Numbered from the stretch's first letter, positions 1 through 58,496 are shown. The stretch is DNA of 63,018 nucleotides from an uncultured archaeon (GCA_964347025.1 CAYFWU010000003.1:8834-71851), one strand, 5' to 3'. Notes: a model not told the origin generated them from the sequence alone. Program-made: numbers and translations.

Positions 1-619
1 TCTCCATCCCTTTCTCTTTCCTCTCACTAAGCCTATCAACATCCTCCCTGAGGGAATCAACGCTCTGCTTAAAGTCGTCCCTTATCCCCACGATAGAACT
101 ATTGAAGCCATCCTTCATCTCATTCATGGTTTTTTCTATTTCACTGATTCTGTCATCAGCCTCCTTAGAATCAACCTTCACACCCTCAAGTTTTAGGGTG
201 GCGTCCCCAATCCTTCCGGTTTGTTTTGACAGATCTTTCAAGGTGCTGTCAAATTCCGCCTGTTTCTTCTCGAGGTTAAAGAGACCGGTCTTCAAGGAAT
301 TAAGAACATCCTCAAAACCCCCAACCTTTTCAAGACCATCGTTCACAGATTTTTCGTAATCAGAAATTTTCTTATAGACTGAATCGAACTTTTCCAGCTT
401 CCTCTTCACGGGTTTTACCTGCGTTTCCACAAACTCGAGTACCCTCTTGCCCGCATTGGAATAGGCCTCTGAGACTTCCTTAATTTTTTCTGTCAGATAC
501 CTGTTCTTTTCCATCAGGAATGCTCTATCGCCTTTAAGTTTTCTTATACTACCTTTCCTTGCCTCATTCTCTTCCTTGAGCTTCTTTAATCTGTCTCCCA
601 GTTCTTTTAACTCTTTCAT
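1..619 (-). CDS. Coiled-coil protein, N-terminal part only (the gene runs off the left edge); paralog-like to the upstream 852-aa coiled-coil protein
   Basis: ATG at 619-617 directly abuts the TAA (622-620) of the upstream gene. My manual minus-strand translation (MKELKELGDRLKKLKEENEARKGSIRKL...LEFVETQVKPVKRKLEKF...DRLSERKEKGME) stays open to position 1. K/E/L-rich. Absent from the ORF track because no stop lies in the window. Confidence 0.6.
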   Translation of the reverse strand, partial: MKELKELGDRLKKLKEENEARKGSIRKLKGDRAFLMEKNRYLTEKIKEVSEAYSNAGKRVLEFVETQVKPVKRKLEKFDSVYKKISDYEKSVNDGLEKVGGFEDVLNSLKTGLFNLEKKQAEFDSTLKDLSKQTGRIGDATLKLEGVKVDSKEADDRISEIEKTMNEMKDGFNSSIVGIRDDFKQSVDSLREDVDRLSERKEKGME

Positions 620-3166
620 TTAACCTCTCAACTCGGCAAGAAGGGAATTTATCCTTTCCTTCTGCTTCCTTGACGTTTCTTCAAGCTTCTTCCTGTCCAT
701 CAAACTCTGTTCAACAACGTTCTCGAATTGAGCACGTGTATTTACGAGTTCCTTCTCAAGCCTCGAAATTCTCTTTTCCATCTTCTCCTGGAAGCTCCCG
801 ATCGTTTTTAGCTCCTTCCATTTCTCATCAAAGCCCTCGATGGATTTCTTGGCGGATGAAATTCTTTCCCCGAGGGTTTTAACCCTCTCACTCGTTCTTT
901 CAAACCTGTCCACAAATGATTTTCTGGAACTTTCCAGATATTCAATCCCTTTCTGCATTTGTGAAATATTTTCAATATAGGATTCTAGATCGCTAAGCCT
1001 CTTTGACATCTCCTTCTCATTTATTTTCGTTTCCTTCAGATCATCCTTCAACTTCCCTTCTTTTTCTTTAAGCCCTTGAAGAGAATCGGCAAATTCACCC
1101 AGATTGTTTTTAAAGAGATCCAGACTCGGTTTGACAACGTTCTCGAACTGTGAGATCTCACTCCTCAGTTCTTCCATACCCTCTTCGAAAAGGTTCCTGT
1201 TATCTTCTATCTCTTTCTCTATGGCAGCAGAGCCGTCACTGAGTTTGCTAATTTCAACGGAGAAATCATTCAGGACTTTCTCAATACTATCAACCCTTCC
1301 AAGAACCCTTTTCTGTTCTGATAATCTCTCGTTCAGGGTTTTCAGCTTGTTGTCAAGTTCGCTGATCCTCTTGTCCAACAAATCCTTCAGATCGTCAATC
1401 TCCTTGGTTTTTCCGTCCAAGATTTCTATGTTTTCCTCTAGCCTTTCAAGGGAACCCAAGGTTTTGAACAAATCCTTGTTCTCAAGTTTGATTTCCTTTA
1501 TCTTATCACTGAGGTTGGACTGGAATTCGTTCAATTTATCAAGCCTGCCGTTAAAACTCTCCAGATCTCCCTTGAACATCTCCATAGTCGGGTTAACAAC
1601 ATCAGCGAACTGGGAAAGTTCGCTTCCAAAACCCTCTATTTTTTCATCAACCATTTCCATTGTTTTCGAAAGCTTACCCTCGATCTCAGACAGCGCTGGC
1701 CTTGAGATGTCCGTGAATTTCTTCTCTATGCTCTTCTCAACATTCAAATTAAGTTTTTCCTGGAAATTCTTGATCCTGCCAAGATTCTTTTCAAACTTAC
1801 CCATTTGCTCTTTTATCATTTCTATGGCCGGGTTTATCGTGTTCTCAAACTGATAGAACCTTGAGGCAATAATATCCATCTCATCTTTAAATGAAGTGAG
1901 CTCCTTGGAAGTTTTGTCTTTTACCTCAGAAAGTTTTGTTTCAGCCATGTCTCTAAACAATCTGTTTACAAGCTCTTCAATAAATTCAGAATAATCCTTC
2001 TTGAATATCTTTATCTTATCCGAAATTTCCTCTGACTTTTCCTTCAGCTTCATTTCCAGGCCAGCTATTTTCTCCGAAAGCTTGCCTTCCCTTTCCTTGA
2101 TATCCACCCTTGTCTTATCTATCTCAGACTGCAGGCCTCCTATGTAGTCGCCAAATTTGTAAAGGGTCTTCAGTTCTCCCTTGAAGTAGCTCATCTCATT
2201 GTAAACCCTCTTTATCCTTCCGTTCAATTTAGCTGCGCCATCCTTAAGGCTCTTTATATCGCCCGTAAAAGGCGATATTTCCTTTGACAGGGCCTTGTTT
2301 ATTTCCTGGGGTATAACTTGGTTTGAAAGTTCCTCAGTGGAAAACACCAGTTTTTTCAGTTTTTCGATATTCTCCGGACCCAGCTTTTCTACCAGAGCCT
2401 GGACCCTTTCCTCGAGTGAAGGAAGCTTCTCAAGACGTTTCATTTGTTCCTTGATCCTTGCGAATCTACTCTCATTCTCGTCCCTCATCTCGGTAAATGT
2501 CCTTTCCAGCTCCTTGAAAGACCTTTTAACATCCTCCAAATTACTCTGTAATTCAACATTGCCTCCTAGGGCAGCGAGACCCTTGGAAACGTCTTCCCCA
2601 CCTTTGCCGGCAGGTACTTCTGGCGCTGTAAGCTTATCAGATAATTTCTTTATTGTGTCCTCAAGGGCCGATATCTTGCTCGTGGTTTCGCTCTGTATCT
2701 TATCAACCAATTTTTTAACCTTTCCGCTCTCAGGTTTCTCGGTTTTACCGGCACTCTCGATCTTAGTTCCGATAGCCACCATGCTATCCTTTAGTTCCTT
2801 CAGCTGAGTCTGGAACTGATCCGTTAGCTTTTTTTCCAGATCTTTCAGCTTGGGTTCCACAGGCTCTGCCGGGGGAGTGGCCGGGGAGTCTTTCGTCTCT
2901 TCGGCCTTAGAAGAAACCTTCTCTATTATTTCAGCCAGGCCCTTGCTCTTGTCTTCAAGTTCACTCCTTTCCTTTTCAAGTGATTTCGTTTTGCTCTTTT
3001 CAGCCTCGAGCTCTTTTTTCAGGCTTTCCACTTCCGATTCCTTGGCCGCCGGTTTCGCAACTTCGGGCTTCTTCTCTTCCGGTGGTTTCTTTTTGCCCAA
3101 TTCACCCATGCCGCCCAAGCCCTCGGCAACCTCTTTTTTCTTTTTAGGATCTTTCTCATCAACCAT
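620..3166 (-). CDS. Long K/E-rich coiled-coil protein (about 848 aa) with a recurring QFENVVxP-type motif
   Basis: 852-aa ORF 620-3178. The ORF-track start at 3178 is TTG; the first ATG (MVDEKDPKKKK) is at 3166, preceded by GGTGG. No TM segment. Motif copies: AQFENVVEQS (~700-735), SQFENVVKPSLDLFKNNLGEF (~1090-1160), SQFADVVNPTMEMFKGDLESF (~1565-1615), YQFENTINPAIEMIKEQMGKF (~1800-1858). Confidence 0.8.
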   Translation of the reverse strand: MVDEKDPKKKKEVAEGLGGMGELGKKKPPEEKKPEVAKPAAKESEVESLKKELEAEKSKTKSLEKERSELEDKSKGLAEIIEKVSSKAEETKDSPATPPAEPVEPKLKDLEKKLTDQFQTQLKELKDSMVAIGTKIESAGKTEKPESGKVKKLVDKIQSETTSKISALEDTIKKLSDKLTAPEVPAGKGGEDVSKGLAALGGNVELQSNLEDVKRSFKELERTFTEMRDENESRFARIKEQMKRLEKLPSLEERVQALVEKLGPENIEKLKKLVFSTEELSNQVIPQEINKALSKEISPFTGDIKSLKDGAAKLNGRIKRVYNEMSYFKGELKTLYKFGDYIGGLQSEIDKTRVDIKEREGKLSEKIAGLEMKLKEKSEEISDKIKIFKKDYSEFIEELVNRLFRDMAETKLSEVKDKTSKELTSFKDEMDIIASRFYQFENTINPAIEMIKEQMGKFEKNLGRIKNFQEKLNLNVEKSIEKKFTDISRPALSEIEGKLSKTMEMVDEKIEGFGSELSQFADVVNPTMEMFKGDLESFNGRLDKLNEFQSNLSDKIKEIKLENKDLFKTLGSLERLEENIEILDGKTKEIDDLKDLLDKRISELDNKLKTLNERLSEQKRVLGRVDSIEKVLNDFSVEISKLSDGSAAIEKEIEDNRNLFEEGMEELRSEISQFENVVKPSLDLFKNNLGEFADSLQGLKEKEGKLKDDLKETKINEKEMSKRLSDLESYIENISQMQKGIEYLESSRKSFVDRFERTSERVKTLGERISSAKKSIEGFDEKWKELKTIGSFQEKMEKRISRLEKELVNTRAQFENVVEQSLMDRKKLEETSRKQKERINSLLAELRG

Positions 3167-3199
3167 ACAACCACCCAACCTTCAAGACATTGATATTAT

Positions 3200-3469
3200 T
3201 TATTCGTTTGATAAAGCCTCAGCAAGCCTCTTTACGTTCCTTTCTTGCTCTTTCAGTTTATCCTCAAATTCTGAAATTTTGGAATCGATCTCATTTAACT
3301 TGGAGCTGAATTTAAACTCCCATTTCGAGTCGTCAACCTTTCCGATTTCTGGTACAAACATACTATTTGATTTTGTTTTCAGTTTATATTTAATTTTATA
3401 AATTTGATATAATAAAAAGCAAATTATAACAATCATCAAAAATATTACCAAAACCATTATCTCTAACAT
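3200..3469 (-). CDS. Small membrane-anchored coiled-coil protein (89 aa)
   Basis: ATG start. N-terminal hydrophobic helix (MLEIMVLVIFLMIVIICFLLYQIY) followed by a K/E-rich helical tail (SKISEFEDKLKEQERNVKRLAEAL). Sits 33 nt after MinD and 21 nt before the next gene on the same strand. Confidence 0.6.
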   Translation of the reverse strand: MLEIMVLVIFLMIVIICFLLYQIYKIKYKLKTKSNSMFVPEIGKVDDSKWEFKFSSKLNEIDSKISEFEDKLKEQERNVKRLAEALSNE

Positions 3470-3502
3470 AAGTATTATTTTGATTTTATTATTGAAATAT
3501 GT

Positions 3503-4279
3503 TTATTCTTTCGGTTTGATCCCGAACAATCTCAGGAAAGCCGAGAAAATGTTCGGAGGTGTGTATTCTTTACCTATCAACTTTGCGGCAAGCTTCTTCA
3601 TTTCGACGCTTGCAGGAGAATTTGGAGAGAATAAGTATACTGGAACCTTCAAGGCCAGGCTCTTCAGAACGTTCTTATCCATGGGTATCATGGATATCAC
3701 GGGAATTTCTGATATCTGCTCAACCTCCTTTTGACCTAGCTCATACTTTTCCTTTCCGACCATGTTCAAAACCACGCCCAACGGTTTTATTCCCATCTCG
3801 TTTACAACCTGGTGGCATTTCATTATATCCATGGTGGAGGGGACGAAGGGTGTGTTTATGAATATAACCTCATCGGCCGCCTGTAACGTTGCCATGGCCT
3901 CCCTTCCGAGACCAGGGGCGGAATCAAGAAGAACTATATCAGCCTTCCCAAACAGATTTTTTAGCGAATGCTTTAACTTTGCTATATCGGTTCCCTTCAA
4001 ATCACCAAGCGATAAAGAGGCGGGGATAACCCTCAGACCGCTTATGTGGTATTCGTACATGGCATCCTCTATTTTCGCTTCGTTTTTCAGGACCTGGTTG
4101 AGCGTAACAGGGCAGTAGTACATCCCCAGATACAAGGCAAGATGAGACGTCGTTATATTACAGTCGACTATTATGACTTCTTTCTTGAACTCTGATGCTA
4201 GGATGGTTCCCAGATTTGCAACTATGGTTGTCTTACCAACGCCACCTTTACCCGAAATCACCCCAATTATCCTTGTCAT
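3503..4279 (-). CDS. minD: MinD/ParA-family (SIMIBI) ATPase
   Basis: Deviant Walker A with signature lysine (GVISGKGGVGKTT), a Walker B-like hydrophobic strand ending in D (IVLLDSAPG), and overall MinD/ParA layout over 258 aa. Confidence 0.85.
   Translation of the reverse strand: MTRIIGVISGKGGVGKTTIVANLGTILASEFKKEVIIVDCNITTSHLALYLGMYYCPVTLNQVLKNEAKIEDAMYEYHISGLRVIPASLSLGDLKGTDIAKLKHSLKNLFGKADIVLLDSAPGLGREAMATLQAADEVIFINTPFVPSTMDIMKCHQVVNEMGIKPLGVVLNMVGKEKYELGQKEVEQISEIPVISMIPMDKNVLKSLALKVPVYLFSPNSPASVEMKKLAAKLIGKEYTPPNIFSAFLRLFGIKPKE
3506..3556 (-). other. C-terminal amphipathic helix resembling a MinD membrane-targeting sequence
   Basis: The last 17 aa, PNIFSAFLRLFGIKPKE, were verified by translating 3556-3506. 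They resemble the bacterial MinD C-terminal motif (..GFLKRLFGG). Confidence 0.5.
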
Positions 4280-4324
4280 TCGTTTTCACTCTTTATTTTT
4301 ATTAATTTGTAATTAAATACCTTC

Positions 4325-4987
4325 CTACCATTTTAGCGTACACAATATTTTCGACAGTTCATTCTCATTTTTTATGACCATGGGGAAATCTGTTATCTTT
4401 CCCAATTGTGAATCCAGCTGGTACATATAGTTCAAAACATCCCTTTCGCACGATAGCGAAATGATGGTTGAAATCATCCTTGAGACAATGTCAGCCTTGT
4501 ATTTCTTGAAAAATATTGTCATGTTGGAAAACAATATATACATGAAAACATCCGTGAATATGTTCGACCCGTATCTGCCGACGAAGTCCTTATCACCCCT
4601 GTAGAGCAGTTTCAGATTCTTTAGGGAAAAGAGAACAGGATGATACTTTTCCATGAATTTCTGGATGATACTCCACTTCGCAACCAGCAGTGAATTGGGA
4701 GTCCAGAATTCCTCCTGAAGCTCTCCTTTGTATCTACCCTTTACGTAACCAGGTATCCATCCGAAGAGGGGCTTCAGCCTTTTACCTTCTTTAATTATGT
4801 AATTTTCCTTTATCATTTGTCTGAAAAGGGGTTCACCGAGACCTGATTCTATGTGATAGAGATAGTTGGTTTTCACACCCCATTCCGTTTGTATTTTGAA
4901 AAGGGACGTCCCGTTCTTATCGCTTGCGGCATTTAACCAGATAAGCCAAAAGTTCTTGTAATCCGTTAGCTTCTTTTTCTTGACCAT
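4325..4987 (-). CDS. Hypothetical protein (220 aa), no family recognised
   Basis: ATG-initiated ORF, co-directional with the cluster, preceded by a 132-nt AT-rich spacer (4988-5119). The N-terminal part could be helix-turn-helix-like, but I cannot support that. Confidence 0.6.
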   Translation of the reverse strand: MVKKKKLTDYKNFWLIWLNAASDKNGTSLFKIQTEWGVKTNYLYHIESGLGEPLFRQMIKENYIIKEGKRLKPLFGWIPGYVKGRYKGELQEEFWTPNSLLVAKWSIIQKFMEKYHPVLFSLKNLKLLYRGDKDFVGRYGSNIFTDVFMYILFSNMTIFFKKYKADIVSRMISTIISLSCERDVLNYMYQLDSQLGKITDFPMVIKNENELSKILCTLKW

Positions 4988-5119
4988 ATTTCTACAATTA
5001 TACTATAATCACATCCGGTTTCAGGGCGTTTCCTCTTCAAGTGAACCTTAACTGTTTATTGATGTGACATTTTATTATTAGAATTTTTTATATAAATATA
5101 ATAGTATAAACATACAAAT

Positions 5120-8100
5120 TTATTTAACCTCTGCTACCCTCTTCTCCAGAGAAGCAAGTTTCTCTTCGTTTCTCTTCTTAAGGTTTTCATAGGCTTTCTC
5201 TGATATCAATCCGTCCTTGAACTCCCTCTCAAGAAGGTTTATAACCCTCTTAACACTTGCTATCTCCTTTGCTATATTTTCCCTCTCTTGTATCTTCTCC
5301 ACTGCCACTGTCGTTGGCTTCATTTTCGGTAGCTGTACCTTGAAAATGCTCTCCACACTTCCCTTTACCCTCTTCACAAAGAATAACAGTATGACTATAA
5401 CAGCAATCAAGATTATCAGAACGATTATCAGCCATATCGGTAGGAAGGTGACGAAGGGTTGTACAAATGTGGCTTTCGAAAGCAGATACTTCGCTCTTTC
5501 CAGAAGGTTCCACCCGACGTAAACCGCGCTGAGTGCGTCATCATACATCTTCTTGTTAAGATAATCCTTCGCTTCGCTTAACTTTTCTTTTATTTCATCT
5601 ATCAGCGGTTCAACTTCGCTAACGTCCTTCCCAACATCTTTCGCTTCCTTAACATCCAACTCGAAATCCCTCAATGCCTTCTCGAGTCTCTCTATCTCCC
5701 ACCTCACAAGATCTTCTCGAGAGGTGAAGACCACTATCTTGAACATCTTTTCATCGCTTGTTTTGTTGTTGTATGCGACTCCTTCCGCTACAAGCGTTCC
5801 GAAGTATTCCTTTGGTTCAGCGATGCTCGGCATGCTCAGCTTCATGTTGAAGGAGGTGGAATTGCCGGGAGAAAGATAATCAACAATTTTAGGTGTTATC
5901 TCGGTCCACGGCGTCGGGAGTCCGATAACTCTAAGCGTTACGTTTCTGAGTCCCAAACCACCAGTGTTTTCAACCTCAACAGTTATGTATTTCGTCGTTC
6001 CTGTTTCTATTCCGATTTCCTGTAGGTATTTAGTTATCTCTATTTTCGGGACTTTCTCCTCTGGCGGTGCAGGCGGCGGAGGTGGCGCTTCACCTGGGGG
6101 AACCGGAGGTTCTGGTGGGCCAACACCCCTCTCTGCAACCAGGAAGCTTGCATTGGCAGAGGCAGTAGGCTGGGCGGGATCGTAGGTAACCAAGGCATTC
6201 ACATAATATGTTCCGAGTGGTTGTGTAGGTGTTATGTAGAGGTTCTTTACCAATGTCCTGTTTGAAAGGGCAGGAACATTGACGAAATCATACTGATAAC
6301 TCCATGTCTGGTTTTGACCAGAAACCCAATATTCAACTTTAACATCCGTGTGCGAAACCTCTCCCCTGTTCTCTATATATATCTCAAAATCTATGTAATC
6401 ATTCTGATAAGCCTGACCTTCCAACAGGTTTATCGAAACGTCGTACGGACCTCCTGCAGATATTCTGAAGACCTCCATATCCCAGCCAGGTTTTCCGCCA
6501 AGCATAACCTCCAGGACAGCTACGTAGGTCCCTGTTTGTGTTGTATTCTCATCCAATATTTCTGTTAGATAATTATAGAAACCAGGGGAGGTCTCTGTGA
6601 AATCACTCTTATTCAACTGACCCCATGGACGAGTAACCAATTGAAGCCCGTAGATGGAACCCGTGTAGTATACTTTAAGATCTATCGAGTCCGGTTCGGA
6701 CGGGACCCCATTCGCCAGGACAGAAACACTCATGGGCATGGACTGTCCGATGAGCGAGGGATCTGGTATAGCGACCCTCGCTGTTATCTCGCTCTCTTCC
6801 TTAACCTCAAACTGATAGGTTGAGTTTTCGTATAACATCTTGCCCACACTGCTTTCATAATACGAGGAATTGGCTATTATGGTATAGTTACCCAAGACGG
6901 CATCATCAATGATCTCGAATTCAGGTGGTATCTCTATCCTGCCATTTGATAAAGTTGTATGAATAGTTGAAGGATCAGGAGGTATTATCAGATTCTGAAG
7001 AGGATCCCTTATTGAAAATGTTACATTCGTATCCCCTATCGGACTGCCCAAGAAATCCTCGACGCTGTAGTTGACCGCTCCCCTTTCTCCCTGATAGTAA
7101 ATGCCGCTCTGCCTGAATGTTCCCAGATTTATCATAAGTTTCTTATATATTGTAAAGTTCGAAGAGTTCGTCCCGTTCTTCCCCTGGATATCGAAGGATA
7201 TTATGCTAATGTTATAAACACCCTTGAGGGATGTATTCCCCCATAGTCCGTGATCTGCATCGTAGGGGAAATATATATCATACGTGTATAAATTGCCGGT
7301 CTGCCCGAATGGGTCCATCTGGGCTGAATAGTTCGTGCCATCGGGTCCTGTTATGTTTATGGAGGCGTTCTGAATGGGGTTCAGGGAACTTAGATCCGTT
7401 ACGTTCGCAAATATCCTCAAAGTCCCGTTCTGCTCTGTGGCATTTGGATATATCCCTATCTCCACAACAGGCTTGACGTAGGGATTAAGAACTATCTGGA
7501 GAATGACGAAGTCAGGAGACGAACCAGCTTGAGTGGCGTTTATGGTATAGTTGGTACGATGGAACTGTACGGGAGCGTTGGTTACATTGTAAAGAACCGC
7601 GAACCTATGGGATTCAAGCTTGTTTATCGTAAAGCTCGTTTCATTGGTCCATGTATAATTGACAGGACTTGATTGGGAAGAGTAAGGAGTTATGTTGAAA
7701 TCCAGTTGGACATTCCCTGTATTATCTATCGTGATGTTGTTGGGACAGACATGACCCAATTCTGGGCTCATGGGTCTTTCGCAGTAGGGCGGATCTGGCG
7801 TGATGGTCCATGTCCTGCTAGTGGGAACTCCTATCTCAATACTCAGATTTTTCCACCCGGCATTAAGAGTGGTGATGTTAAGGGTTCCGCTGTAAATCCC
7901 GGGATTGTAACCTGCAGGGATCGAAACATTGACTATAACTATCTGGACTTCACCAGCCGACATGTTCGTAATGTTAGGCGGATTGAACTGGAGAGGAACG
8001 AAGGTGAAATTGAAATCGCTCAACCCTATAACCTCAAGGGTCAGGTTCACTACCTTGTCGTTACCTGAAGAATTGAGGGTGAGATTATCGAAGTTTACAT

Positions 8101-12650: not shown

Positions 12651-12709
12651 ACATTAATTAATTGATTACGAAATCTAAAATAAATAGATGTAAAATAAAT
12701 GAAAATAGA

Positions 12710-45700: not shown

Positions 45701-48700
45701 GGTATAGGATATGTTGTATTCTGGATTTGCTGATCTCTTCTTCCACCCCCCTGAGGTGAGGTCGAATGTCAAATGGCTTTCATCTGTGTAGTTCATTGTT
45801 CTGACTTGGTGGGCTGGGGTCTCGGTTATGTTTCTGCTGCCCCATGTAAGGTTATACCAAAACATTCCTGTCTGGCCAGTATCCAGATCAGAGAGAACCT
45901 TATAAGCTGCGATTTTGTACATGTTGGCAGCTATGTCGCCAAGATCACTTGCAGACCATCTGACCTCCCTTTCAGGTACGTCCACCTCTCCGGCTGTCAC
46001 GCCATCCAGAGTTGGAGCATAAGCCACCCAACCGGTTGGCAGCTTTTCGGTAAGATAGATATTTGTGGCTAAAGCACAACCCTTGTTGTGAATAACAAGA
46101 CGAGAAGCGAAGTCCGTGTTGTTCCCAACTTCTCCTGGAGTCTCCCTGATTATCTCCAAAACCGGGATGGAGTCACCGGCTTCTATGGTGTAATTCGCTT
46201 CCCTGTATTTATCCAGATTATCGGGATAGGTGTAATTGACGCTTGCATTTATCACGAAATTTTGGCTAGTCCCTGCCTCTGCGGTAAGGTTAAAGCTTGC
46301 GACATAATCACCGGGCTCGCTGGCGTTTATAAGAACGTAATCAGGTTCTAACACCCAAGAGCTTGGGACCTCAAGGGTTACGTTGTACTGCAAATCATCC
46401 GTGAATGGATGAGAAACCGTGACGTTAAACTGCTCGGTCGTTGCGTTGCACATGTAAGGTTGGCCTTTTGCTGAAACAGGAACCGTTTTGAATATGAAAT
46501 CTTCCTCCCTTTCCACTGGTTCGCTGATATTACCGTTAACATATGATCCTATCTGATAGTCATCTTCTGACCAGGTGGAAGTATTGATGCTGGTGAAATT
46601 AACCAGTATGGTTTCGTTATTTGGAAGTGTAATGTCAGTCTGCGTGCTGCTGTTGACGACGTAACCGGTGGAGTTGGTGATGTTTAAAGTCACGTTAATC
46701 GAGTAAGAGATGTTAAGGGTGTTTGCTATCTTTACCGTCACGTTGAACAAACCGTCTCCCGACTCCATCCCATATGTCTCCACCCCATTTTTCTTTGGCA
46801 CGATATCCTGAACCAGAACCACGGGTCTGTAATAAGCCTCTAAGAAAAGAGAGTCCACCATAAGGTTGTATGTATCCATGTTCTCGATTTTTATTTGGCA
46901 GTATCCGCTGCCGTTAGCTGCTATCTGATCCTCGAGTATGGCGATCTTCGTCCTTTCTGCAGTGTCGTTGACGTATTTTCTCAGAATCTCATTCCAACCC
47001 GTTCGGTTTAAAGCGTAAACCCTTGCAGACGTATTCCCTCCATTTGATTCCCAGTGGACCGTTAAATTCGCAACCCTGTAGATTCCGGCTTCGCAGGCCC
47101 ATGAAGCAATTAATTCCTTCTCACTGCTTATTTCAGCTTCTACTGTATTATCATCCAAGCTCTCCCCAACGGTCACATTGGTGACATTAACTTTACTTAA
47201 AGCACCTTCCGAATAGGTATCATTTTTAACTGTTGCATACTTCGGGGTTGAGGCCGGCGAAACTTTGTAAGCAATCAATATTTGGGAATCGTTATAATCG
47301 GAGTTGTCCTCTTCATTTTCCCCTGTAACGTTCACAGTGAAGTTTGAATACGAGTTGGGCAGAATTGTCCATGTCACTTTCTTCACTTCTTCCCATCCCA
47401 GATCCCCTACCTGTTGGGTAACAGACGGCCATATCTGCCAGCCTGAGGGAACCACAAGGCTGAGATTTATTCCTGTTGAAGAACCCGCCGTGCTATTTAC
47501 GGTCGCGTTCACCGTAAAGTTCATGCCCTGGAAAACCTCTTCAGGAGCGAGAACTTCCGTTACATTAGGAACACCAATTCCCGAAAGCTCAAAGGCCGGA
47601 TCCTTAAGGTGAGTGCCGTTCCAATAATAACTGACATTCGATGCGTTCATCTCCACAGAGCAGTTAAGGTTGTATTCAACAACCTCAATTGAATCCCACG
47701 TGCAGTTATAGGTCCCGTTCCCGAGGTCGGTTATTGCGGAAGTGCAATCGTAGGAGTAATCGCCGCATGTTATGTTAAAGAAAACGTTTGCACCTGTGAT
47801 GTAGTTATTGCAGTCATCAAGCAAATCTCCGATAATCGGAATTACGTCTCCTATCTGGTATGATGTGTAAGGCATCGTGACATTCGGCTCCAGATCTCCG
47901 TAAACCGTTACATTATAGATCGATTGACTCTGAACATCATCCTTGAAATAATCGTAGGCATCGTCAAGGGTATAGGCAAACCAAGTCTGGTTACCAACGT
48001 CGTATAATGGATCGCAGCCTGGGTCAAAACTTAGATTGGAATAACCAGCTGAACCAGTCAAAACCACCATCTGATCAGTTCCGCTGTCCTTATGATAGTT
48101 GGTGTAATTCGTCCCGTTCACGGTCACGTTAAAGTAGATGTTTTCCTGAATCGATGAAGATGCATATTGACCGCGATCAGTGTCAAAGACGTCAACCCAG
48201 AGGGGAACTGTCTGGCTCCCGGACCTGTTCACGGAAACGTCCCTCGGCGTGTCTTTCCTCTCAGGGGCCTCGCAGAAAATGGTTAAATTCTCCACGTGTT
48301 TTACATATCCAGAAATGTCGTTTTGCGTTACATTCGATGTTATGTTGATTACGTATGCATCCTCGCTAGGACACATGATCCTCATCTTGAATGTCAGATA
48401 GGCCTTCGCCAAAGATGTGTTAAATTCATAACCATCTATCATATCATTTACACAATTGACGCAGGCATATTGCCAATAAAGTTCTGTGTATGTTCCATTG
48501 GTGGTGGCATGGTGTGTAACGTTTTGGTTTCCCCTGCCATGGGCCTCGATTGTCCCTGGTATGACCCAGCCCGCTGGTATGGTGATGTTTGTCCTGAAGG
48601 ACGTTACCTCACCAAAGCTTGAGGATTCCGTGAACACCCACATCGGAAGAAGGACATCAACAACCTGCGTCCTGTTCGCCTTCCGGTCCTCATAGGACCA

Positions 48701-51700
48701 CCAGTCATGCGGAGACGCGCAGTAATCAGAATCCTCCGCATTGAGCAGGCTGTCACCCTGATCCAAATCAATTCTCCATGCGACTCCTTCACCGTTGTTG
48801 GGAACGATTCCTGAAGGATAGTTCACGGTATAAAGAGTAGTACTGTCGTTAAGCCAGATAGTGGCGTTCTGTCTGCATTGTCCTAATGTTTTTTCGTTGT
48901 TGTTACCAACATCGTAGAGAAGTGCCCAGTACAGCTCGAACTCATGAGGTTGGATTATGGTGGTGTTTTCGCTCCCTCCGGCCGGGGTCCCCCAGTTAAG
49001 CTGATACCAGTATTGGTTGTCCGTGTTAACTGTAGGGGACGTAAATTTCTCGTAGTAGGCGTCAACGGTAGGCGTATCCAGCAAATCTGTATCCTCTGCG
49101 GGATAATGCCACATATACCTCACGCCGGTGACGTTAATCGGTTTATCCCCCCAGTTATAAACGATCACATGTTTGTATTCCCCTGTGGGGCAGTTTGTAT
49201 TCCTTTCGCCCTCCCTTGAATGGGACTCGACAAAGGCCTTTGTTTCATCAGGATGGTAGCGGGTTCCGAGAACGATGTCGTCCTTTTCCAGGTCAAGCCT
49301 GCCATCTACAGCAGGTCCGGGATACACCGTACTCTCGGCTTTGCCGTCTGCTGTCTGCGAAGCGTTTACCCTAAAATACCATAGGTTATAACTGTCGTAT
49401 TCTGTTGATGAGAATTCACGATAGAATTCCACTTTTTCATTGCTGGGTGTTCCTATAGCTCTACATTCTCTGATTTCCCAATTCCCTCCGCTGTATTTTT
49501 CCTGAAGACATATGGTGACATCCGCGGTATGGGTAACGTATGTTCTAACCGTGAAATTCTCTCCCCAGCCACCCTTTCCGGTAGAGCCGTCATTTGGTAT
49601 AATGATTGAATTATTGAGGATCACCGGCGGTGTTACGGAAAGATAATCCTCTTCTGTCACCTCATCATCCAAATAACATGTCTTGTTTGAGTACATGGTC
49701 ACGTTGTAATTCCCGCCTACTTTGCCAGCCGAATCCCAATCGCAGGTGTATGAGCCATTGCCAAGATCAGTGGTGCTGTTACACCAGTAGATATTAATGC
49801 CGTTTTCATTGGTAAGTTTGAATTTAACAGTCGCTCCTGCGATGAAATTGAAACAATCGTCTACCACATTACCTGTCAGGTTTGCGTATCTTTCTTCTGT
49901 CTCAGAATAATCACCACTGCCACCCGTTATTTCGTTGGCCAAATCGTCCACCATCTTAACGACAAACTCGTCGGACTGATTGGGTTTATAGCAGGTTCCT
50001 CCCGTTGTGTTTACCTTCCATTTATGCTCACAGCTGGTCACGTTGACCTGATAATTGCAGTCTGGGGTGAAGGTGTAATTCCAAAATCCGTCATCTGAGT
50101 CGGTTGTAGTTTCCAGAATGTAGTCACCATCTGCCTTCACATAAAACCTTCCTGATGTCGTTGTTATTGATGACTGATTGTCTGTGTCATTCCCATAAGT
50201 GGACAGGGCTGTTGAGTTATACTGGCTTAGTGGATAGGTAAAATTCCTTAAATTCAATACCGTATTGTTCCCGACTGCATGCTGGATTATGATGCTATCT
50301 CCCTCCAAATTAAAAGATTCTATTGTCGTTTCGCTTTTAGTCCCAACACTGTCAGTTGCGTTGAATTTATACTGAATGGTTCCGACCTCGCTGCAGGTGT
50401 ATTGCCTTGTCCAATTAAATTCCGTTTTATTGCAGGTTGTGCAATTGTAGTTTGTAGGCGATATCTCTGTCCATTCTCCACTACTCACCTTCTCCCAGAA
50501 GTGAATATAAACAGTATCATTCGTAACATCGGTTACGTTTACAAAGAAGGTAAACGATTGAGCTCCCCAACTTCCTGACGCCGGTTCAACCTTATAATCT
50601 TCAAGTACTGGCGGATTTTCCAAGAAGAAAGTGTCGGGTTCGTATTTGTAGGAGGTGACATTGTAATAGTACTGTTTCCTTGAGAAGACCGATACATTAT
50701 ACCAGCCTGCAGGGGCATCTGCAGAATTCCAGGTACACTCGTAAACGTTTGCTCCCAGCTTCGTTATAGACGTGCATGATGTGTTGAAGTTCCAAAAGTC
50801 GTTTGTTAAGTTAAACCATATGTCGCCTTGGTCAATTTCAATAGCCTCCTCGCAATAGTTTTCGACAATCGCCTGGAAAAATACCCCCTCCCCTGAAGTG
50901 TAGTTTACACTACCATCCGGCTTTTGTATAGTGTTGTTTAAAATTCCTGTCACGTTGAAGTCGTAATCCTCTGATTGCGCATCCGCACAAAGGTTCGGGT
51001 CTTGATTTGTTGTAATTATAACGTACCAGTTGTGCGGACCCACCTCATATTCCTCGTCAATAGTAGGTGTGCTAGCGTTGTCGCATGTTGCAGTGAAGTT
51101 ATACGTAACAATCCCGGAAGCATTGGTTGTCAGAGAATGACCGGAATCCCATGTCGCTCCCGATCCGGTTCCCACTTTCGTTATGTACATTGTAACGCTT
51201 TCTCCAGCTCCAACAGGACCCCCAGCTCCGTATTCTATCTTCACCCAGACATCTGTCCAGTTGATCTGGTCCAAAGCAGAATCATTCACGTAATCGAAAT
51301 TTATCCCGCGGATCCGGATGTCTCTGTTGCTTGTCTGCGTCCCGTTCCACCCGCCCATTATTGACTGATCTGTCGTGTTCAGGCTGTAGACACCTGCGCC
51401 AGAAACATTAACAGTGAAGTTGCCCACATGTATCCATGCAGAGCCGTTGTAGATTTCGAGTTGCAGGGTATTGTTGTTATTTCCCCTTGCCACAGAACCT
51501 GAATTGTTGTAATAGGAGACGTTAACGGTTACGTTGATTAAGGATATGTTGTCCAGTTCTTGGCTGGTCACATCCTGGTATGTAGTCCAGGAGGTTGTCG
51601 ATTCATTATCTCCACCCCCCTCACCTGTAACATTTATCTCATCGGTGAATATGTACTCGCCGTTGTAAGTGGCGTCCTGCCAAATCCTTATATAAACACT

Positions 51701-54700
51701 TGAATTATCCTCCACACAACTGTCTATTGCAGACAAATTGGTATTATAGGACTGACTGAACCCCGTGGCGGGATTAATGTCCACTACTTCAACCCACGTG
51801 GCTCCTTCATTGCAGGTAAATTCTAAAGAAAGTTGTTCATTGGGAGATTCATAAGTATCAGCACAATCACTGAAAACCCATGAGATATTTATGTTCGTGT
51901 ACCCTGTTGTATCCACGCTGTGATTTACACCAGTACAATATCCAGGATCACATTGGTGTCCACCAGCGCCCCCGTCACCTCCTACTGTCTGCATGTAATA
52001 AGTATCACTACACAGTGTAGTGCAGCCTGTGCTCACAATTGAGGCTATTTCGTCCGCACCCCTGTCAGTCCAGTTTATCCAGGCTGAAGCATCGTTGTTG
52101 TTTACCCCTGAACAGCTTCCGCAGCTAAAATCTCCGGATTCAAAACCATCATAGAATATAACGGTCCTTCCAGTACTTCCTTGCGCCTTTTTCTGGATTT
52201 CCCCGGTTTCCTGATCGTCCGTGGTCAGTGAATTGCTCTTGTATTTGACAAGGACGGAAAGCGTGAGGTTGGTTTTATCTGCAGACCTGTTCGTGTTTTC
52301 GTCATCACCCGAAATGACTTCATAGGTGTAGTTCAGATCAGGATTGCAGGGCAGGGACAGCTGAACAGGCACGAATGTTTTCCTGTCCATTGCGAGAGGT
52401 GCGCTGTACATGCTGTAGGGGCTTTTGGTGACCGTTAAGGTGAACTGGGAGAAGGTTTGATTACCTGTGTATTCGTATAAAGCGTAGGTAACAGCCTGCT
52501 GGGGGATGGTCCCGTCAGCTGACGTGTTGATTTCAAAGACCGTGTCGCCGTTGATATCGGTCAGCTTGACAGTCGCGTTCCCCACGGGATTCGCTCCGTA
52601 TTTGACCGTTACGTCAAGCGCGTACTTTCGGAAGAACGTCCCGTTGTCAGCGTACCAGTTAAAATTCCAGGTATCGGATATAATGTTAATGGTAGTTCCG
52701 TTTGAAGATCCTGCTGAAAACCCGTAGCCATCTTCTATATTTATTTTCTTCTCTGTTGTTTGGTTTATAGCGGATCCGTTGATGATCAGATCAACGTAAG
52801 ACGTATACGTCCCACAATCATCGCTCACTGTAAAGACATCTGTTAAATATTCTTCGCCCTTTGTATAGTTTACCTGTATTGCCTGCATGTAGTCGTATAT
52901 CTGGCTAACGTTCTTGGTTTCGTTAACAATTATCTCTCCGCTGTGGAAGTAAACCGGAGTGACGTTCGTTGTCTCGTAACCGTCAATAAAGAAGACAGAT
53001 CCATTGTCATAGTAGACTGTATAATCATCTTTATTCACGACTCCCAGCGGAGTAAGCGTGGTGGAATCCATGCCTTCCACGTTGAGTATTTGGAAGTGTT
53101 CTGACTGTGTTACAGGTGTTCCTAATAGCTGGATCATGTCATCCGTTCCCACATCACCAGCCTCGCTAAAGTTACTGAATTCATGTTGAGTTGGTGGGTT
53201 GTAAGTTATTCCTGTCTGGGCTTCTGCCTCTGATTGCGTGTAATTCGTACACCATGTACATGGATGGGCATACAAAACAGTGTCCAACGCTATCGGGCTT
53301 GTCAGCTCCATGAGCGCTTCGGAGAACTTGTATCCGTACTTCCTGTAGTAGAATTCATGTGGAGTGTAATTGGCCTGCGGCTGGCTGACGTCTGAAATTA
53401 TCTGCAGTCTTTTGAAACTAAGGATCTGTTCTGCTATTGTTCCGTTAGAGTACGAGGAGACGTTGAAAACAAGCCTGCCCTGAAGATCCCTCGCAGCGAC
53501 TGTTACACTCCCTAGGTCATTGTTTGCGGTATCCTTAATACCCAGGTTGAAAGAACTCTGTCTGAGTATGTAGTTGTCGCTGGCGCTACCACCACCGCAG
53601 CCGTTATAATCTATGTTACCTTCGTCAAAAGTCGAATCTATCGCTATGAGATAATGCCCTGTACCCATTCGAATGTCATCGGTGTTATCGTAACCTGAGT
53701 AACCTCTGACTGAACCATGCGCATAACATATCCTTATTCCAGCTTCTGCATCGTGGATGAGTAGGTTGGTGAACGGTTTCGGGGGCTCACCACTCATCTC
53801 CATTCCGTACCTTCCGTTGTAGAAAGCATAGTCATTCATGGTTGTATTTGCCGGAACGTAGAGTATGCCATAGCTTCCGCTCTTTGCGTATCGTTGGAAC
53901 GTAAACCTGTTTATTGTGACACTTGCGGTGCTATACCCACCGCCAGGCTCGTTGTCCATGGAGCCCGGAGAGCCTGCATCAATGTTGTTTCTAAGGGTGG
54001 TGTATATGATTTTGTAAGTGGTATCAAAGAACCGCAGTTCCCCACCATTATCAGCGTCATTGTAATCATCATATGCACACATGGCTGCCTGGTCGCAGAG
54101 CTCGGTAGCGACATTACTTTCTATGTAAGACCCCTGTTCTGGCTGGCCCGAAGCTGTTTCCTGGCCGAAAATCAGATGTCCGTTTTCCAAAACCTGCCAG
54201 TTGTAGTTCATCCTTATAATATCGTTCGTCGACTTGAGCCAGCTGACGGCGTCGGTGGCGTTACCAACTCTCAACAGTTCATCGAAAATGAAGTAGTTCC
54301 CATATTGAGTTACACCTCCGCTACACATGACCGCTACATCTTCTATGGTGTAAGGCGAGGCCTCCGTTCCCTCGGTAACCGTTATCGTTCCTCCAGTGGT
54401 GTTGGTGCCGCAAGTTATCGAGTGCCTGTGTTCCGGGTCGTACTCGAAGATTACTTCCTCCTTGGCAATTTTCATGTCTTTGATTTTTTTTAATAAATTT
54501 TTCCCATCGAATTTTTTGTCGGCGATGTAGGTATACGTTCCACCGTGGGTGAACAGGCTGTCTTTCATCTCGGTGTCGGAAGAGAGGTAGAAGACTGTTG
54601 GGAGATTGAATTCGTCCCTCTGCATGTTGAACCTGTCGAGCCTGACCCTGGACCCTTCCTCGGTATATATGTTGTTCATAACGCCTTGGTGGAACACCCT

Positions 54701-56269: not shown

Positions 56270-56289
56270 AGAAAACTGGACCCGCACCC

Positions 56290-57305: not shown

Positions 57306-57378
57306 CTTTTTATATACACAGGATAATATGTATGAATAAGTATGATAAAGTAATACCTTTATCTGAGAGGTGGTGATT

Positions 57379-58479: not shown

Positions 58480-58489
58480 GAACAACGCC

Positions 58490-58496
58490 TTTATAT
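58490..58496 (+). promoter_or_regulatory. TATA box (TTTATAT) for the 148-aa gene
   Basis: Its centre lies ~25-26 nt upstream of the ATG at 58518 (leaderless geometry). Confidence 0.4.

What the first reader, a model, noticed from the sequence alone, without database searches (positions are those of the whole stretch)
1..56287. Co-directional gene cluster: giant fibre, second surface protein, SHOCT-like coiled-coil adaptor, MinD ATPase and long coiled-coil proteins (candidate novel envelope/cytoskeleton system)
Seen: eight minus-strand genes with short or overlapping junctions. The junctions are a 59-nt gap after the giant gene, an 8-nt overlap at 11097-11104, gaps of 132, 45, 33 and 21 nt, and a stop/start abutment at 619/620. 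The products are two huge N-glycoprotein-like membrane proteins with cytoplasmic tails, three cytoplasmic K/E-rich coiled-coil proteins, one membrane-anchored coiled-coil mini-protein, a hypothetical protein, and a MinD/ParA ATPase with a membrane-targeting helix. Inference: the arrangement looks like an extracellular structure coupled across the membrane to a cytoplasmic scaffold that a MinD-type ATPase could position. I know of no described system with this composition. Possible functions are cell-cell or host attachment, a contact-dependent transfer apparatus, or a positioned surface organelle.
Basis: inference. Interest (0 to 1): 0.9.

Follow-up and report, generated by a model that had tools for sequence, protein, structure and literature searches.

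The report
Giant archaeal surface-protein motor gene cluster
A roughly 14,500-residue surface protein of a tiny symbiotic (DPANN) archaeon ends in a cytoplasmic ring-ATPase and sits beside partner genes that recur across DPANN; the giant belongs to the already named SPEARE family, but I found no description of its conserved partners.

Summary
The eight co-directional minus-strand genes and all their junctions are real. The window comes from a Candidatus Aenigmarchaeota (DPANN) genome. The giant protein ends in a transmembrane helix, a HerA/FtsK-type P-loop ATPase and a coiled coil. This C-terminal module aligns end to end with the Nanohaloarchaeum antarcticus SPEARE protein (35% identity over 629 aa, E 2e-116). 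The giant is therefore a new, record-size member of a known but poorly understood family.

What I did not find in the literature is the conserved company it keeps, judged from 80 related loci.
- A g6-type helical protein follows the ATPase-tailed giant in 73 of 74 loci.
- A roughly 1,950-aa second surface protein (g5 type) follows in 36 of 48.
- A MinD with a membrane-targeting helix follows in at least 20 of 48.
- g5 tails and g6 share a SHOCT/GvpG-like motif.

A winged-helix/membrane/Ig gene that is separate in four relatives is fused to the giant here. The genes g4, MinD, g2 and the coiled-coil genes form a second, separable module limited to Aenigmarchaeota.

Most likely this is a trans-envelope host-contact apparatus with an ATP-driven ring at its base. 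Its function is inferred, not shown.

The parts
12710..56287 (-). g7: SPEARE-family giant surface protein. It is 14,525 aa from the GTG start; the likely true start is the ATG at 56269.
   Evidence: One uninterrupted ORF. The C-terminal 610 aa are 35% identical to the Nha. antarcticus SPEARE C-terminus (E 2e-116). The tail family has 456 homologues and at least 503 loci in species genomes.
55217..56287 (-). g7 N-terminal module (aa 1-357): cytoplasmic winged helix (56063-56269), transmembrane helix (55934-56005), a sequon-rich spacer and a NEW3-type Ig domain.
   Evidence: Pfam HTH_11 and HTH_IclR hits. The module is homologous to stand-alone proteins of about 317-400 aa (50 hits). In all four relatives examined, that gene sits directly upstream of the giant gene and overlaps it by 8-11 nt in three of them. 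In the window it takes the place of the giant's own signal peptide.
20588..51487 (-). g7 repeat zone (aa ~1,600-11,900): about 20 diverged copies of a ~450-aa unit, interrupted by three copies of a ~800-aa unit.
   Evidence: Self-BLAST of 300-aa windows. Only NPCBM_assoc/NEW3 Pfam hits. The flanking unique regions have no PDB sequence match.
13928..14665 (-). g7 stalk: Cys-rich segment, Pro/Gly-rich linker and two Ig-like domains next to the membrane.
   Evidence: Conserved with the ~725-aa paralogues and with SPEARE.
12713..13927 (-). g7 C-terminal transmembrane helix (13832-13927), HerA-type ATPase (Walker A at 13622-13651, Walker B at 13247-13273) and a three-helix coiled-coil end.
   Evidence: Pfam DUF87 2e-9 and HerA_C 3e-8. 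AlphaFold2 model with pLDDT 90.8. Best Foldseek matches are HerA hexameric translocases (4d2i, 5e-13), followed by FtsK and TcpA. Walker residues are invariant in 79 sequences.
11097..12650 (-). g6: cytoplasmic helical partner (517 aa). It has a conserved core at 11355-12203 and three SHOCT/GvpG-like motifs at 12423-12512, 11358-11447 and 11097-11186.
   Evidence: A homologue follows the ATPase-tailed gene in 73 of 74 loci; in 56 of them the gap is at most 150 nt. Alignment A4 shows the near-invariant motif E.IGELRS. No Pfam family.
5120..11104 (-). g5: second glycoprotein-like surface protein (1,994 aa). It has a NEW3 Ig domain, an extracellular helical hairpin, a transmembrane helix (5369-5443) and an 82-aa cytoplasmic tail carrying one SHOCT/GvpG-like motif (5138-5236).
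   Evidence: Pfam NPCBM_assoc 8.6e-20. Homologues are present in 36 of 48 loci with enough flank, and most are 1,890-2,100 aa long. The tail motif is present in 26 of 34 homologues.
4325..4987 (-). g4: conserved 220-aa Aenigmarchaeota protein, always followed by MinD. It has a winged-helix-like N-terminal half and a helical bundle.
   Evidence: 125 homologues, none with a Pfam domain. AlphaFold2 model with pLDDT 92.6. No Foldseek match in the PDB at E <= 0.001.
3503..4279 (-). g3: archaeal MinD with a C-terminal amphipathic helix (3506-3556).
   Evidence: TIGR01969 231.8 bits, above the 201.75 cut-off. The helix is conserved in 26 of 27 cluster MinDs.
3200..3469 (-). g2: 89-aa protein with a membrane anchor and a charged helix.
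   Evidence: Transmembrane helix at residues 2-20. Homologues in L004, L011, L012, L013 and L015.
620..3178 (-). g1: 852-aa Lys/Glu-rich coiled-coil protein with internal repeats of about 100 aa.
   Evidence: Matches only coiled-coil segments. Orthologues in L003, L005 and L007. Remote similarity to the g6 core (hhalign probability 86%, E 5e-6).
1..619 (-). g0: coiled-coil protein, cut by the window end. It is 228 aa in the public contig.
   Evidence: 100% match to L001 8888-9574. It corresponds to the N-terminal part of the 1,041-aa and 1,416-aa proteins in L003 and L007.
56413..56865 (+). Divergent HTH_24 gene (150 aa), a likely regulator.
   Evidence: Pfam HTH_24 1.2e-6. It is 70% and 34% identical to the divergent HTH genes at the same position in L091 and L092. 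Small divergent genes also sit there in L094 (weak HTH_24) and in L093 (no Pfam hit).

Best explanation
This is the SPEARE locus of an Aenigmarchaeota (DPANN) archaeon. I read it as a trans-envelope host-contact apparatus.

Shown by the data.
- g7 is a giant, heavily sequon-marked ectodomain tethered by a C-terminal transmembrane helix.
- Its cytoplasmic end is a HerA-type ATPase with intact Walker motifs, followed by a coiled coil.
- g6 is its almost invariable downstream partner.
- g5 is a frequent second surface protein of nearly constant length. Its short cytoplasmic tail carries the same SHOCT/GvpG-like helix motif that g6 carries in one to three copies.
- A MinD with a membrane-targeting helix recurs in the cluster.
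- A winged-helix/transmembrane/Ig protein that is a separate upstream gene in relatives is fused here to the giant's N-terminus.

Inferred.
- The ATPase domains form a hexameric ring under the membrane and so bundle six giants into one fibre or tube.
- g6 bridges that ring to g5 tails through the shared motif, forming a cytoplasmic platform.
- MinD, in its membrane-bound ATP form, recruits or places the assembly.
- In Aenigmarchaeota the second module (g4, MinD, g2 and coiled-coil g1/g0) adds a sub-membrane scaffold.
- The ring uses ATP to move a polymer (DNA or polypeptide) at the contact site, or to do mechanical work on the fibre.
- The ectodomains bind the host cell.
For: Family membership.
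- SPEARE: with the family description in PMC6642349.
- HerA-type motor.
- Topology: sequons lie only between the two helices.

Conserved linkage over Aenigmatarchaeota, Micrarchaeota, Nanoarchaeia/Woesearchaeota, Nanohalarchaeota, Undinarchaeota and Altiarchaeota.
- g6 in 73 of 74 loci.
- g5 in 36 of 48.
- MinD in at least 20 of 48.

A paralogous 'mini' cluster repeats the same four gene types: a 725-aa ATPase-tailed protein, a g6 homologue, a g5 C-terminal homologue and MinD. It coexists with the giant version in the same genome bins: L032+L077, L053+L010 and L058+L078.

The shared motif is specific. It occurs in 69 of 71 g6 homologues, 26 of 34 g5 tails, 0 of 81 giants and 1 of 27 MinDs.

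The MinD amphipathic end is conserved.

The N-terminal module is fused exactly at the giant's signal-peptide cleavage position.

The SPEARE protein is made in culture (proteomics in PMC6642349).
Against: - There are no expression, localisation or interaction data for any part.
- No polytopic channel protein, pilin, nuclease or second translocase is encoded in the window, or recurs in the 80 loci. A conduit would therefore have to be built from single-pass helices.
- MinD is absent within 10 kb in 28 of 48 loci. This is a lower bound on its presence, because the flanks end there.
- g5 was not detected in the Micrarchaeota and Nanoarchaeia loci.
- g4, MinD and the coiled-coil genes occur with no giant gene within 10 kb in L003, and on another contig from the ATPase-tailed giant in one bin (L005 versus L057).
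- The in-frame N-terminal fusion could be an assembly artefact.
- The substrate of the ATPase is unknown.
- Aenigmarchaeota hosts are unknown.
Confidence: 0.55

Rival explanations
1. Type IV secretion-like 'straw' (La Cono et al. 2023). The giant would be part of a T4SS. Its VirB4/TraG-like ATPase would inject effectors into the host through the giant protein.
For: The ATPase belongs to the FtsK-HerA superfamily, which also holds VirB4 and the coupling proteins. There are weak hits to T4SS-DNA_transf, TraD, TraC and CedD. Foldseek finds the coupling protein TcpA at 4e-9. PMC10266531 reports a separate VirB4-family gene next to the giant in two nanohaloarchaea.
Against: The best structural and sequence matches are HerA, not VirB4 or VirD4. 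There is no VirB4 N-terminal domain. The window has no VirB4, VirB6/CedA-like or pilin gene. No second ATPase or other recognisable T4SS part recurs in the 80 loci. The gene downstream here, and in 73 of 74 loci, is the non-ATPase g6.
Confidence: 0.15
2. Two unrelated neighbours. The genes g4, MinD, g2, g1 and g0 would be an independent cytoskeletal, division or segregation module (a ParA/MinD ATPase with a winged-helix adaptor and coiled-coil filaments) that merely lies next to the SPEARE module in this lineage.
For: L003 has the g4-MinD-small-protein-coiled-coil module with no giant within 10 kb. In one bin, g4-MinD (L005) and the ATPase-tailed giant (L057) are on different contigs. In L007, L027 and L031 the two modules converge. 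The 132-nt g5|g4 gap is AT-rich with TATA-like boxes and T-runs. g4 has a winged-helix-like half.
Against: MinD genes of several sub-lineages lie inside or beside the giant-g6-g5 block in loci that lack g4, and in the mini cluster. g1 shows remote similarity to the g6 core. g4-MinD follows g5 in 10 of 48 loci, with the same order in eight of them.
Confidence: 0.3
3. Envelope-building role. g5, which has a constant length and is widely conserved, would be a lattice or S-layer-type wall protein. The giant would be a wall-anchored fibril. The ATPase and g6 would serve assembly or anchoring rather than host contact or transport.
For: g5 homologues keep to 1,890-2,100 aa and align over their full length across phyla. 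g5 has a signal peptide, dense sequons and a C-terminal membrane anchor, as archaeal S-layer glycoproteins do (my knowledge). No enzymatic ectodomain was found.
Against: g5 was not detected in the Micrarchaeota and Nanoarchaeia loci, where the giant and g6 persist. No S-layer Pfam domain was found. A HerA-type motor has no known role in wall assembly.
Confidence: 0.1
4. Original SPEARE reading (Hamm 2019). The protein would combine serine protease, adhesion and an intracellular restriction endonuclease that degrades imported DNA.
For: Some family members match the Pfam ResIII or DEAD models in the P-loop region. DPANN lack nucleotide synthesis, so DNA uptake would be useful (PMC6642349).
Against: No protease or nuclease domain was found in g7. 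The ResIII match is to a shared P-loop, and the fold is HerA. La Cono 2023 reached the same conclusion.
Confidence: 0.03

Closest known systems
SPEARE giant proteins of Nanohaloarchaeota and other DPANN (Hamm et al. 2019, PMC6642349; re-annotated by La Cono et al. 2023, PMC10266531)
   Same: Both are giant, mostly extracytoplasmic proteins with a single transmembrane helix near the C-terminus and a conserved cytoplasmic P-loop domain plus terminal coiled coil. The C-terminal 610 aa of g7 align end to end with the Nha. antarcticus protein. Short versions of about 655-720 aa exist in both descriptions.
   Different: At 14,525 aa, g7 is far longer than the published 8,553-aa and 9,409-aa members. 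It carries an N-terminal winged-helix/transmembrane/Ig fusion. No protease, toxin, WD40 or laminin-G domain was detected. The downstream gene is the non-ATPase g6, not a VirB4-family ATPase. The partners g6, g5 and MinD are not mentioned in the papers I could read.
HerA hexameric DNA translocases (HerA-NurA; Sir2-HerA and DUF4297-HerA defence complexes)
   Same: Same RecA-like core fold and the best Foldseek matches (4d2i at 5e-13). Walker A and B motifs are present. Helices follow the core, as in HerA.
   Different: There is no full HAS-barrel; a transmembrane helix precedes the core instead. No NurA, Sir2 or DUF4297 partner is present. Scores fall far below the curated HerA cut-offs (29.6 bits against 800). 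The domain is fused to a surface protein.
Membrane-tethered FtsK-HerA pumps: FtsK/SpoIIIE, Streptomyces TraB, the coupling proteins VirD4/TcpA, and Ced system CedB/CedD
   Same: A membrane anchor followed by a ring-type motor of the same superfamily. FtsK and TraB also use a winged-helix domain. In Agrobacterium a ParA/MinD-type ATPase (VirC1) works with VirD4 (my knowledge). CedD is a transmembrane helix, an N-terminal domain and a HerA/VirB4-like ATPase used for DNA import (PMC11868833).
   Different: The matches are weak: CedD 32 bits against a cut-off of 600, and FtsK with E 0.9 by sequence. The cluster encodes no polytopic channel partner, relaxase or pilus. The anchor here is the end of a giant ectodomain.
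MinD/ParA-type ATPases that place envelope machines (TadZ/CpaE for Tad pili, FlhG for flagella, BcsQ for cellulose synthase, Haloferax MinD4 for archaella and chemosensory arrays)
   Same: g3 is a bona fide archaeal MinD with a deviant Walker A motif and an amphipathic C-terminal helix. It is encoded next to the machine it might place.
   Different: There is no MinC/MinE or known client motif. Placement is purely inferred. Several MinD sub-lineages fill this position in different DPANN.
DPANN attachment organelle and intercellular nanotubes seen by cryo-ET (PMC11420986, PMC11329633)
   Same: These are envelope-spanning structures at the host contact in DPANN. Their component proteins are stated to be unknown, so the cluster is a candidate.
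   Different: No link has been shown. The ARM-1 nanotubes were attributed to the host. Aenigmarchaeota have not been imaged.

Membership tests
SPEARE giant proteins | Conserved cytoplasmic C-terminal portion homologous to that of described SPEARE proteins | tested here: met
   35% identity over 629 aa, E 2e-116, to the Nha. antarcticus SPEARE C-terminus printed in Fig. S18 of PMC6642349.
SPEARE giant proteins | Very long, mostly extracytoplasmic chain with one transmembrane helix near the C-terminus and a cytoplasmic end | tested here: met
   Helices at aa 97-115 and about 14,121-14,152. All 923 sequons lie between them.
SPEARE giant proteins | [quoted passage not shown] | tested here: not met
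   No such Pfam hit in any third of g7. The 'restriction' region has a HerA-type fold. PMC10266531 also disputes these domains.
SPEARE giant proteins | Occurrence in DPANN archaea | tested here: met
   The source contig is from a Candidatus Aenigmarchaeota MAG. Named homologues are from Aenigmarchaeota and other DPANN.
HerA clade of FtsK-HerA ATPases | RecA-like core with Walker A and Walker B motifs and a HerA-like fold | tested here: met
   GATGAGKS and LLLVYDE are invariant in 79 sequences. Foldseek: 4d2i at 5e-13 and 9x1l at 2e-12. Pfam DUF87 and HerA_C score above their cut-offs.
HerA clade of FtsK-HerA ATPases | N-terminal HAS-barrel domain and a NurA (or other described) partner | tested here: not met
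   Only about 60 residues with three short strands lie between the transmembrane helix and Walker A. No NurA, Sir2 or DUF4297 gene is in the window.
HerA clade of FtsK-HerA ATPases | Hexameric ring that translocates DNA | not testable with these tools
   This needs multimer modelling or biochemistry.
Type IV secretion / Ced DNA-transfer systems | VirB4-type ATPase with its N-terminal domain (PF03135), or curated CedB/CedD/TraD models | tested here: not met
   No PF03135 hit. CedD 32.3 bits against a cut-off of 600, and TraD 20.9 against 366.
Type IV secretion / Ced DNA-transfer systems | Polytopic channel protein (VirB6/CedA type) and pilus or pilin genes in the cluster | tested here: not met
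   All membrane proteins in the cluster have one or two hydrophobic helices. No recurrent extra gene family in the 80 loci has a T4SS domain.
Archaeal MinD (TIGR01969) | Score above the curated cut-off, and a deviant Walker A with the signature lysine | tested here: met
   231.8 bits against 201.75. The sequence SGKGGVGKTT is present.
Archaeal MinD (TIGR01969) | C-terminal amphipathic membrane-targeting helix | tested here: met
   The hydrophobic moment of PNIFSAFLRLF is 0.66, against 0.45 for the E. coli MinD helix by the same measure. An equivalent helix occurs in 26 of 27 cluster MinDs.
SHOCT domain (PF09851 / PF20612) and GvpG (PF05120) | Match above the Pfam gathering score | tested here: not met
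   SHOCT_2 scores 14.5 and 12.0 bits against a cut-off of 24. GvpG scores 24.3 bits against 30.6. A few g6 homologues give sub-threshold hits. The resemblance is at motif level only.
ParA/ParB-type partition pair (g3 with g4) | Adaptor with a recognised DNA-binding fold or ParB/SegB homology | tested here: inconclusive
   The g4 model has a winged-helix-like N-terminal half. However, no Foldseek match reaches E <= 0.001 (best 0.24), and there is no Pfam or NCBIfam hit.

The most novel reading that the evidence does not exclude
The giant SPEARE protein, g6, g5 and MinD together would be the conserved core of the machine by which DPANN archaea bridge to their hosts. Six giants would be bundled by a membrane-embedded HerA-type ring that pumps host DNA or protein across the symbiont membrane. 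This would be a contact-dependent translocation system unrelated in parts to type IV secretion. It would supply the missing molecular parts list for the attachment structures seen by cryo-ET.
Probability: 0.2. Interest if true: 0.9.

Novelty: new variant of a known kind. Interest (0 to 1): 0.6.

Why it matters
DPANN archaea are abundant and depend on hosts, yet recent cryo-ET papers state that the proteins of their host-contact structures are unknown. SPEARE proteins are the main candidates, but they have been discussed as lone giants with disputed domains.

This window and 80 related loci show three things.
- The giant rarely stands alone. It comes with a nearly universal cytoplasmic partner, a second constant-length surface protein that shares a tail motif with that partner, and often a membrane-binding MinD.
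- Its cytoplasmic end is a HerA-type ring motor.
- A winged-helix membrane protein is its upstream neighbour or fusion partner.

This turns a vague 'adhesin' into a defined multi-protein assembly. Its contacts, stoichiometry, location and ATPase substrate can be tested in the cultured nanohaloarchaeal systems.

At about 14,500 residues the protein would also be among the largest archaeal proteins on record.

Tried and rejected
- Pfam, NCBIfam and PDB-sequence searches gave nothing for g4, for the g6 core, or for the unique N- and C-terminal ectodomain regions of g7. The g5 ectodomain gave only NEW3 and weak MG2 hits.
- Foldseek of a confident g4 model found no significant PDB relative. I could therefore not decide whether g4 is a ParB-like or MinE-like partner.
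- I looked for a second ATPase, VirB4/VirB6-like genes or any other recurrent gene downstream of the giant in 80 loci. The largest unassigned family occurs in only 6 loci, and the examples scanned were PAS, KaiC, a solute-binding protein or had no hit.
- I inspected the small proteins of the 'mini' cluster for pilin-type signal peptides and saw none.
- tRNA and Rfam scans of the window were empty.
- There are no signs of a mobile element or virus. GC content is even, and the flanks hold FBP aldolase/phosphatase, HIT and TIM genes that are syntenic in a relative.
- Early literature searches on DPANN with giant, HerA, DUF87 or FtsK found nothing relevant. The SPEARE papers surfaced only on the last search, which reversed my provisional 'categorically new' reading.
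- The bacterial promoter/terminator scan was not used, because archaeal promoters are outside its scope.

Full report
1. OBSERVATION

The window (63,018 nt, GC about 0.44 throughout) carries eight minus-strand ORFs at exactly the coordinates given. The junctions are as described: a 59-nt gap, an 8-nt overlap, gaps of 132, 45, 33 and 21 nt, and an abutment.

The largest ORF is an uninterrupted 43.6-kb frame (12710-56287). No chance process gives that.

Two start sites need refining.
- Relatives of the giant begin at the Met that corresponds to the ATG at 56269.
- The public annotation starts g1 at the ATG at 3166.

The product descriptions hold.
- N-X-S/T sequons are 3.5- to 4-fold over-represented in the stretches between the terminal hydrophobic helices of g7 and g5 (z = 53 and 18 against shuffles). 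They are absent from the predicted cytoplasmic ends.
- g0, g1 and g6 are 29-31% Lys+Glu and match only coiled-coil parts of SMC, Rad50 and similar proteins.
- g3 passes the curated archaeal MinD model.

2. SOURCE

g4 matches a contig of a Candidatus Aenigmarchaeota MAG exactly (GCA_011773405.1). All named homologues of g4 are from Aenigmarchaeota.

The right flank holds an archaeal FBP aldolase/phosphatase, a HIT protein and triose-phosphate isomerase. This arrangement is syntenic in a relative. The locus is therefore chromosomal and belongs to a DPANN archaeon.

3. THE GIANT (g7)

Anatomy:
- a cytoplasmic winged helix (aa 7-75);
- a transmembrane helix (aa 97-115);
- a sequon-rich spacer and a NEW3-type Ig domain (to aa 357);
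- a unique region (to about aa 1,600);
- a repeat zone of about 10,000 aa, made of roughly 20 diverged ~450-aa units and three ~800-aa units;
- a second unique region;
- a Cys-rich segment, a Pro/Gly linker and two Ig-like domains;
- a transmembrane helix (about aa 14,121-14,152);
- a P-loop ATPase;
- a three-helix coiled-coil end.

The ATPase matches Pfam DUF87 and HerA_C. Its Walker A and B residues are invariant in 79 homologues. It was modelled with pLDDT 90.8. The best structural matches are HerA hexameric DNA translocases (Sulfolobus HerA 4d2i at E 5e-13; Thermococcus HerA-NurA). FtsK motors and the coupling protein TcpA follow.

It is not a canonical HerA.
- The HAS-barrel is replaced by the membrane helix.
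- Curated HerA, CedD and TraD models score far below their cut-offs.

4. IT IS A SPEARE PROTEIN

Hamm et al. 2019 (PMC6642349) described giant DPANN 'SPEARE' proteins.
- They are mostly extracytoplasmic, with a transmembrane helix near the C-terminus.
- Their most conserved part is the cytoplasmic portion.
- Homologues were noted in Aenigmarchaeota, Woesearchaeota, Micrarchaeota and Altiarchaeales.
- The protein was detected by mass spectrometry.

The last 610 residues of g7 align end to end with the C-terminus of the Nanohaloarchaeum antarcticus protein printed in their Fig. S18. The identity is 35% over 629 aa, with E 2e-116.

La Cono et al. 2023 (PMC10266531) had already replaced the 'restriction endonuclease' reading by a VirB4/TraG-like ATPase plus coiled coil. 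They proposed a type IV secretion-like 'straw'. My data agree that there is no nuclease or protease. They place the domain nearer to HerA than to VirB4.

So the giant itself is a new member of a known family, and the longest I have seen reported. The published maxima in those papers are 8,553 and 9,409 aa.

5. WHAT TRAVELS WITH IT

A profile of the tail found at least 503 loci in species-representative genomes. I analysed the best 80. They come from Aenigmatarchaeota, Micrarchaeota, Nanoarchaeia/Woesearchaeota, Nanohalarchaeota, Undinarchaeota, Altiarchaeota and Parvarchaeota, plus two short contigs that are probably mis-binned.

Results:
- The ATPase-tailed ORF runs off the 10-kb upstream flank in 41 loci, so giants are the rule.
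- A g6 homologue follows in 73 of 74 loci with enough flank. In 56 of them the gap is at most 150 nt.
- A g5 homologue follows in 36 of 48 loci, and most are 1,890-2,100 aa long.
- A MinD follows in at least 20 of 48.
- g4 follows in 10 of 48, and g2 and g1 only in close relatives.
- No other gene family recurs in more than 6 loci, and none is a secretion component.

A paralogous 'mini' cluster repeats the pattern. It holds:
- a ~725-aa protein with a signal peptide, a Cys-rich segment, two Ig domains, a transmembrane helix and the ATPase;
- a g6 homologue;
- a 306-340-aa homologue of the g5 C-terminal part;
- a MinD.

The mini cluster coexists with the giant version in the same bins (L032+L077, L053+L010, L058+L078).

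In a 1.84-billion-protein representative library, the module profile finds 517 clusters at E <= 1e-30. In most of the 150 listed matches the module ends at or within a few residues of the C-terminus. In a minority a further 100-700 residues follow it.

6. THE PARTNERS

- g6 has a conserved helical core with a near-invariant E.IGELRS motif. It belongs to no Pfam family.
- g6 carries three copies of a helix motif that also ends the cytoplasmic tail of g5. A model built from the four window copies finds the motif in 69 of 71 g6 homologues (at their ends) and in 26 of 34 g5 homologues (one copy, at the extreme C-terminus). It finds none in 81 giant ORFs and one in 27 MinDs.
- The motif resembles SHOCT and GvpG only below the Pfam thresholds. 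'SHOCT-like' is therefore a resemblance, not membership.
- The cluster MinDs share an amphipathic C-terminal helix like the bacterial MinD membrane-targeting sequence.
- g4 is a 125-member family without annotation. A confident model (pLDDT 92.6) shows a winged-helix-like half and a helical bundle. It has no significant PDB relative.
- g1 shows remote similarity to the g6 core (hhalign probability 86%).

7. THE N-TERMINAL FUSION

Residues 7-357 of g7 are homologous to stand-alone proteins of about 317-400 aa.

In all four relatives examined, that gene lies immediately upstream of a giant gene that has its own signal peptide, overlapping it by 8-11 nt in three of them (L092, L093, L094; in L091 an 82-nt gap and a 77-aa ORF follow). 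A small gene diverges on the other side (HTH_24 in L091, L092 and weakly L094), as at window 56413-56865.

In the window the module replaces the giant's signal peptide precisely. This is a Rosetta-stone indication that the two proteins work together. It also suggests that the giant's N-terminus is held at the symbiont membrane. An assembly artefact cannot be excluded.

8. TWO MODULES

The genes g4, MinD, g2 and the coiled-coil genes are separable from the giant-g6-g5 block.
- In L003 no giant gene lies within 10 kb.
- In one bin the module is on another contig from the ATPase-tailed giant (L005 versus L057).
- In L007, L027 and L031 it converges on the block.
- The 132-nt gap before g4 is AT-rich with TATA-like boxes.

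Against full independence, MinDs of several sub-lineages sit inside the block in loci that lack g4.

9. MECHANISM

The membership, topology, motor fold and conserved linkage are shown. The following steps are inferred.
- The ATPase domains form a ring that bundles six giants.
- g6 links this ring to g5 tails through the shared motif.
- MinD recruits or places the assembly.
- The Aenigmarchaeota module adds a scaffold.
- The ring moves DNA or polypeptide, or works on the fibre, at a host contact.

The main weakness is that no channel-forming protein is encoded. Nothing is known about expression, location or substrate.

The cryo-ET literature states that the proteins of DPANN attachment structures are unknown. 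That makes this gene set a concrete candidate, but no link has been shown.

10. VERDICT

- The core protein is already known as SPEARE.
- I did not find the following described: the conserved partner set, the shared motif, the HerA-clade assignment, the N-terminal fusion, and the second module.

Noticed in passing
L009:1-10066 and L010:1-15559 (also L077): A paralogous 'mini' cluster in Aenigmarchaeota. A large surface protein (3,200 aa in L010) is followed by four small proteins, then a ~725-aa ATPase-tailed protein, a g6 homologue, a 306-340-aa homologue of the g5 C-terminal part, and MinD. It occurs in the same bins as the giant version.
   Followed up: partly
L005:1-1138 (GCA_964484305.1): A second kind of giant (12,847 aa) lies within 10 kb of g4-MinD. 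It ends in ectodomain-like sequence, with no transmembrane helix or ATPase tail.
   Followed up: no
window 56871-57305 (+): A small gene starts 5 nt after the divergent HTH_24 gene. It encodes a transmembrane helix plus an Ig-like domain (144 aa). Together the pair mimics, in split form, the winged-helix/membrane/Ig layout of the g7 N-terminal module, but shows no significant sequence similarity to it.
   Followed up: partly
window 60192-61541 (+): A 449-aa protein with a signal peptide, DUF11-like beta domains (sub-threshold), a late transmembrane helix and a cytoplasmic tail. It is another surface protein, outside the cluster.
   Followed up: no
window 61542-62378: A 34-nt element (CTCCGTTTTTTCCTGTACAAAAGGTTTAAATATG) occurs at 62105 and at 62345 (91% identical), with a weaker copy at 61542. 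The surrounding 1.5-kb stretch has only short ORFs and no Rfam or tRNA hit. The element contains a TATA-like TTTAAATA.
   Followed up: no
window 57370-60182; L093:1-3859: The genes for FBP aldolase/phosphatase, HIT and triose-phosphate isomerase flank the locus. FBPase and HIT are in the same position next to the SPEARE locus in a related genome, so the locus position is conserved.
   Followed up: partly
L060, L062, L066 (Nanoarchaeia-type) and L065, L070 (Micrarchaeota): The lineages differ in their partner sets. In Nanoarchaeia a 219-224-aa coiled-coil gene precedes a short g6, and a conserved 292-315-aa protein follows it. In Micrarchaeota g6 homologues are 1,030-1,330 aa and are followed by a different large signal-peptide protein in place of g5.
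   Followed up: no
L068:5378-6736: In an Altiarchaeota locus a 452-aa protein matches both MinD and g5. It may be a fusion, and it lies next to a normal 263-aa MinD.
   Followed up: no
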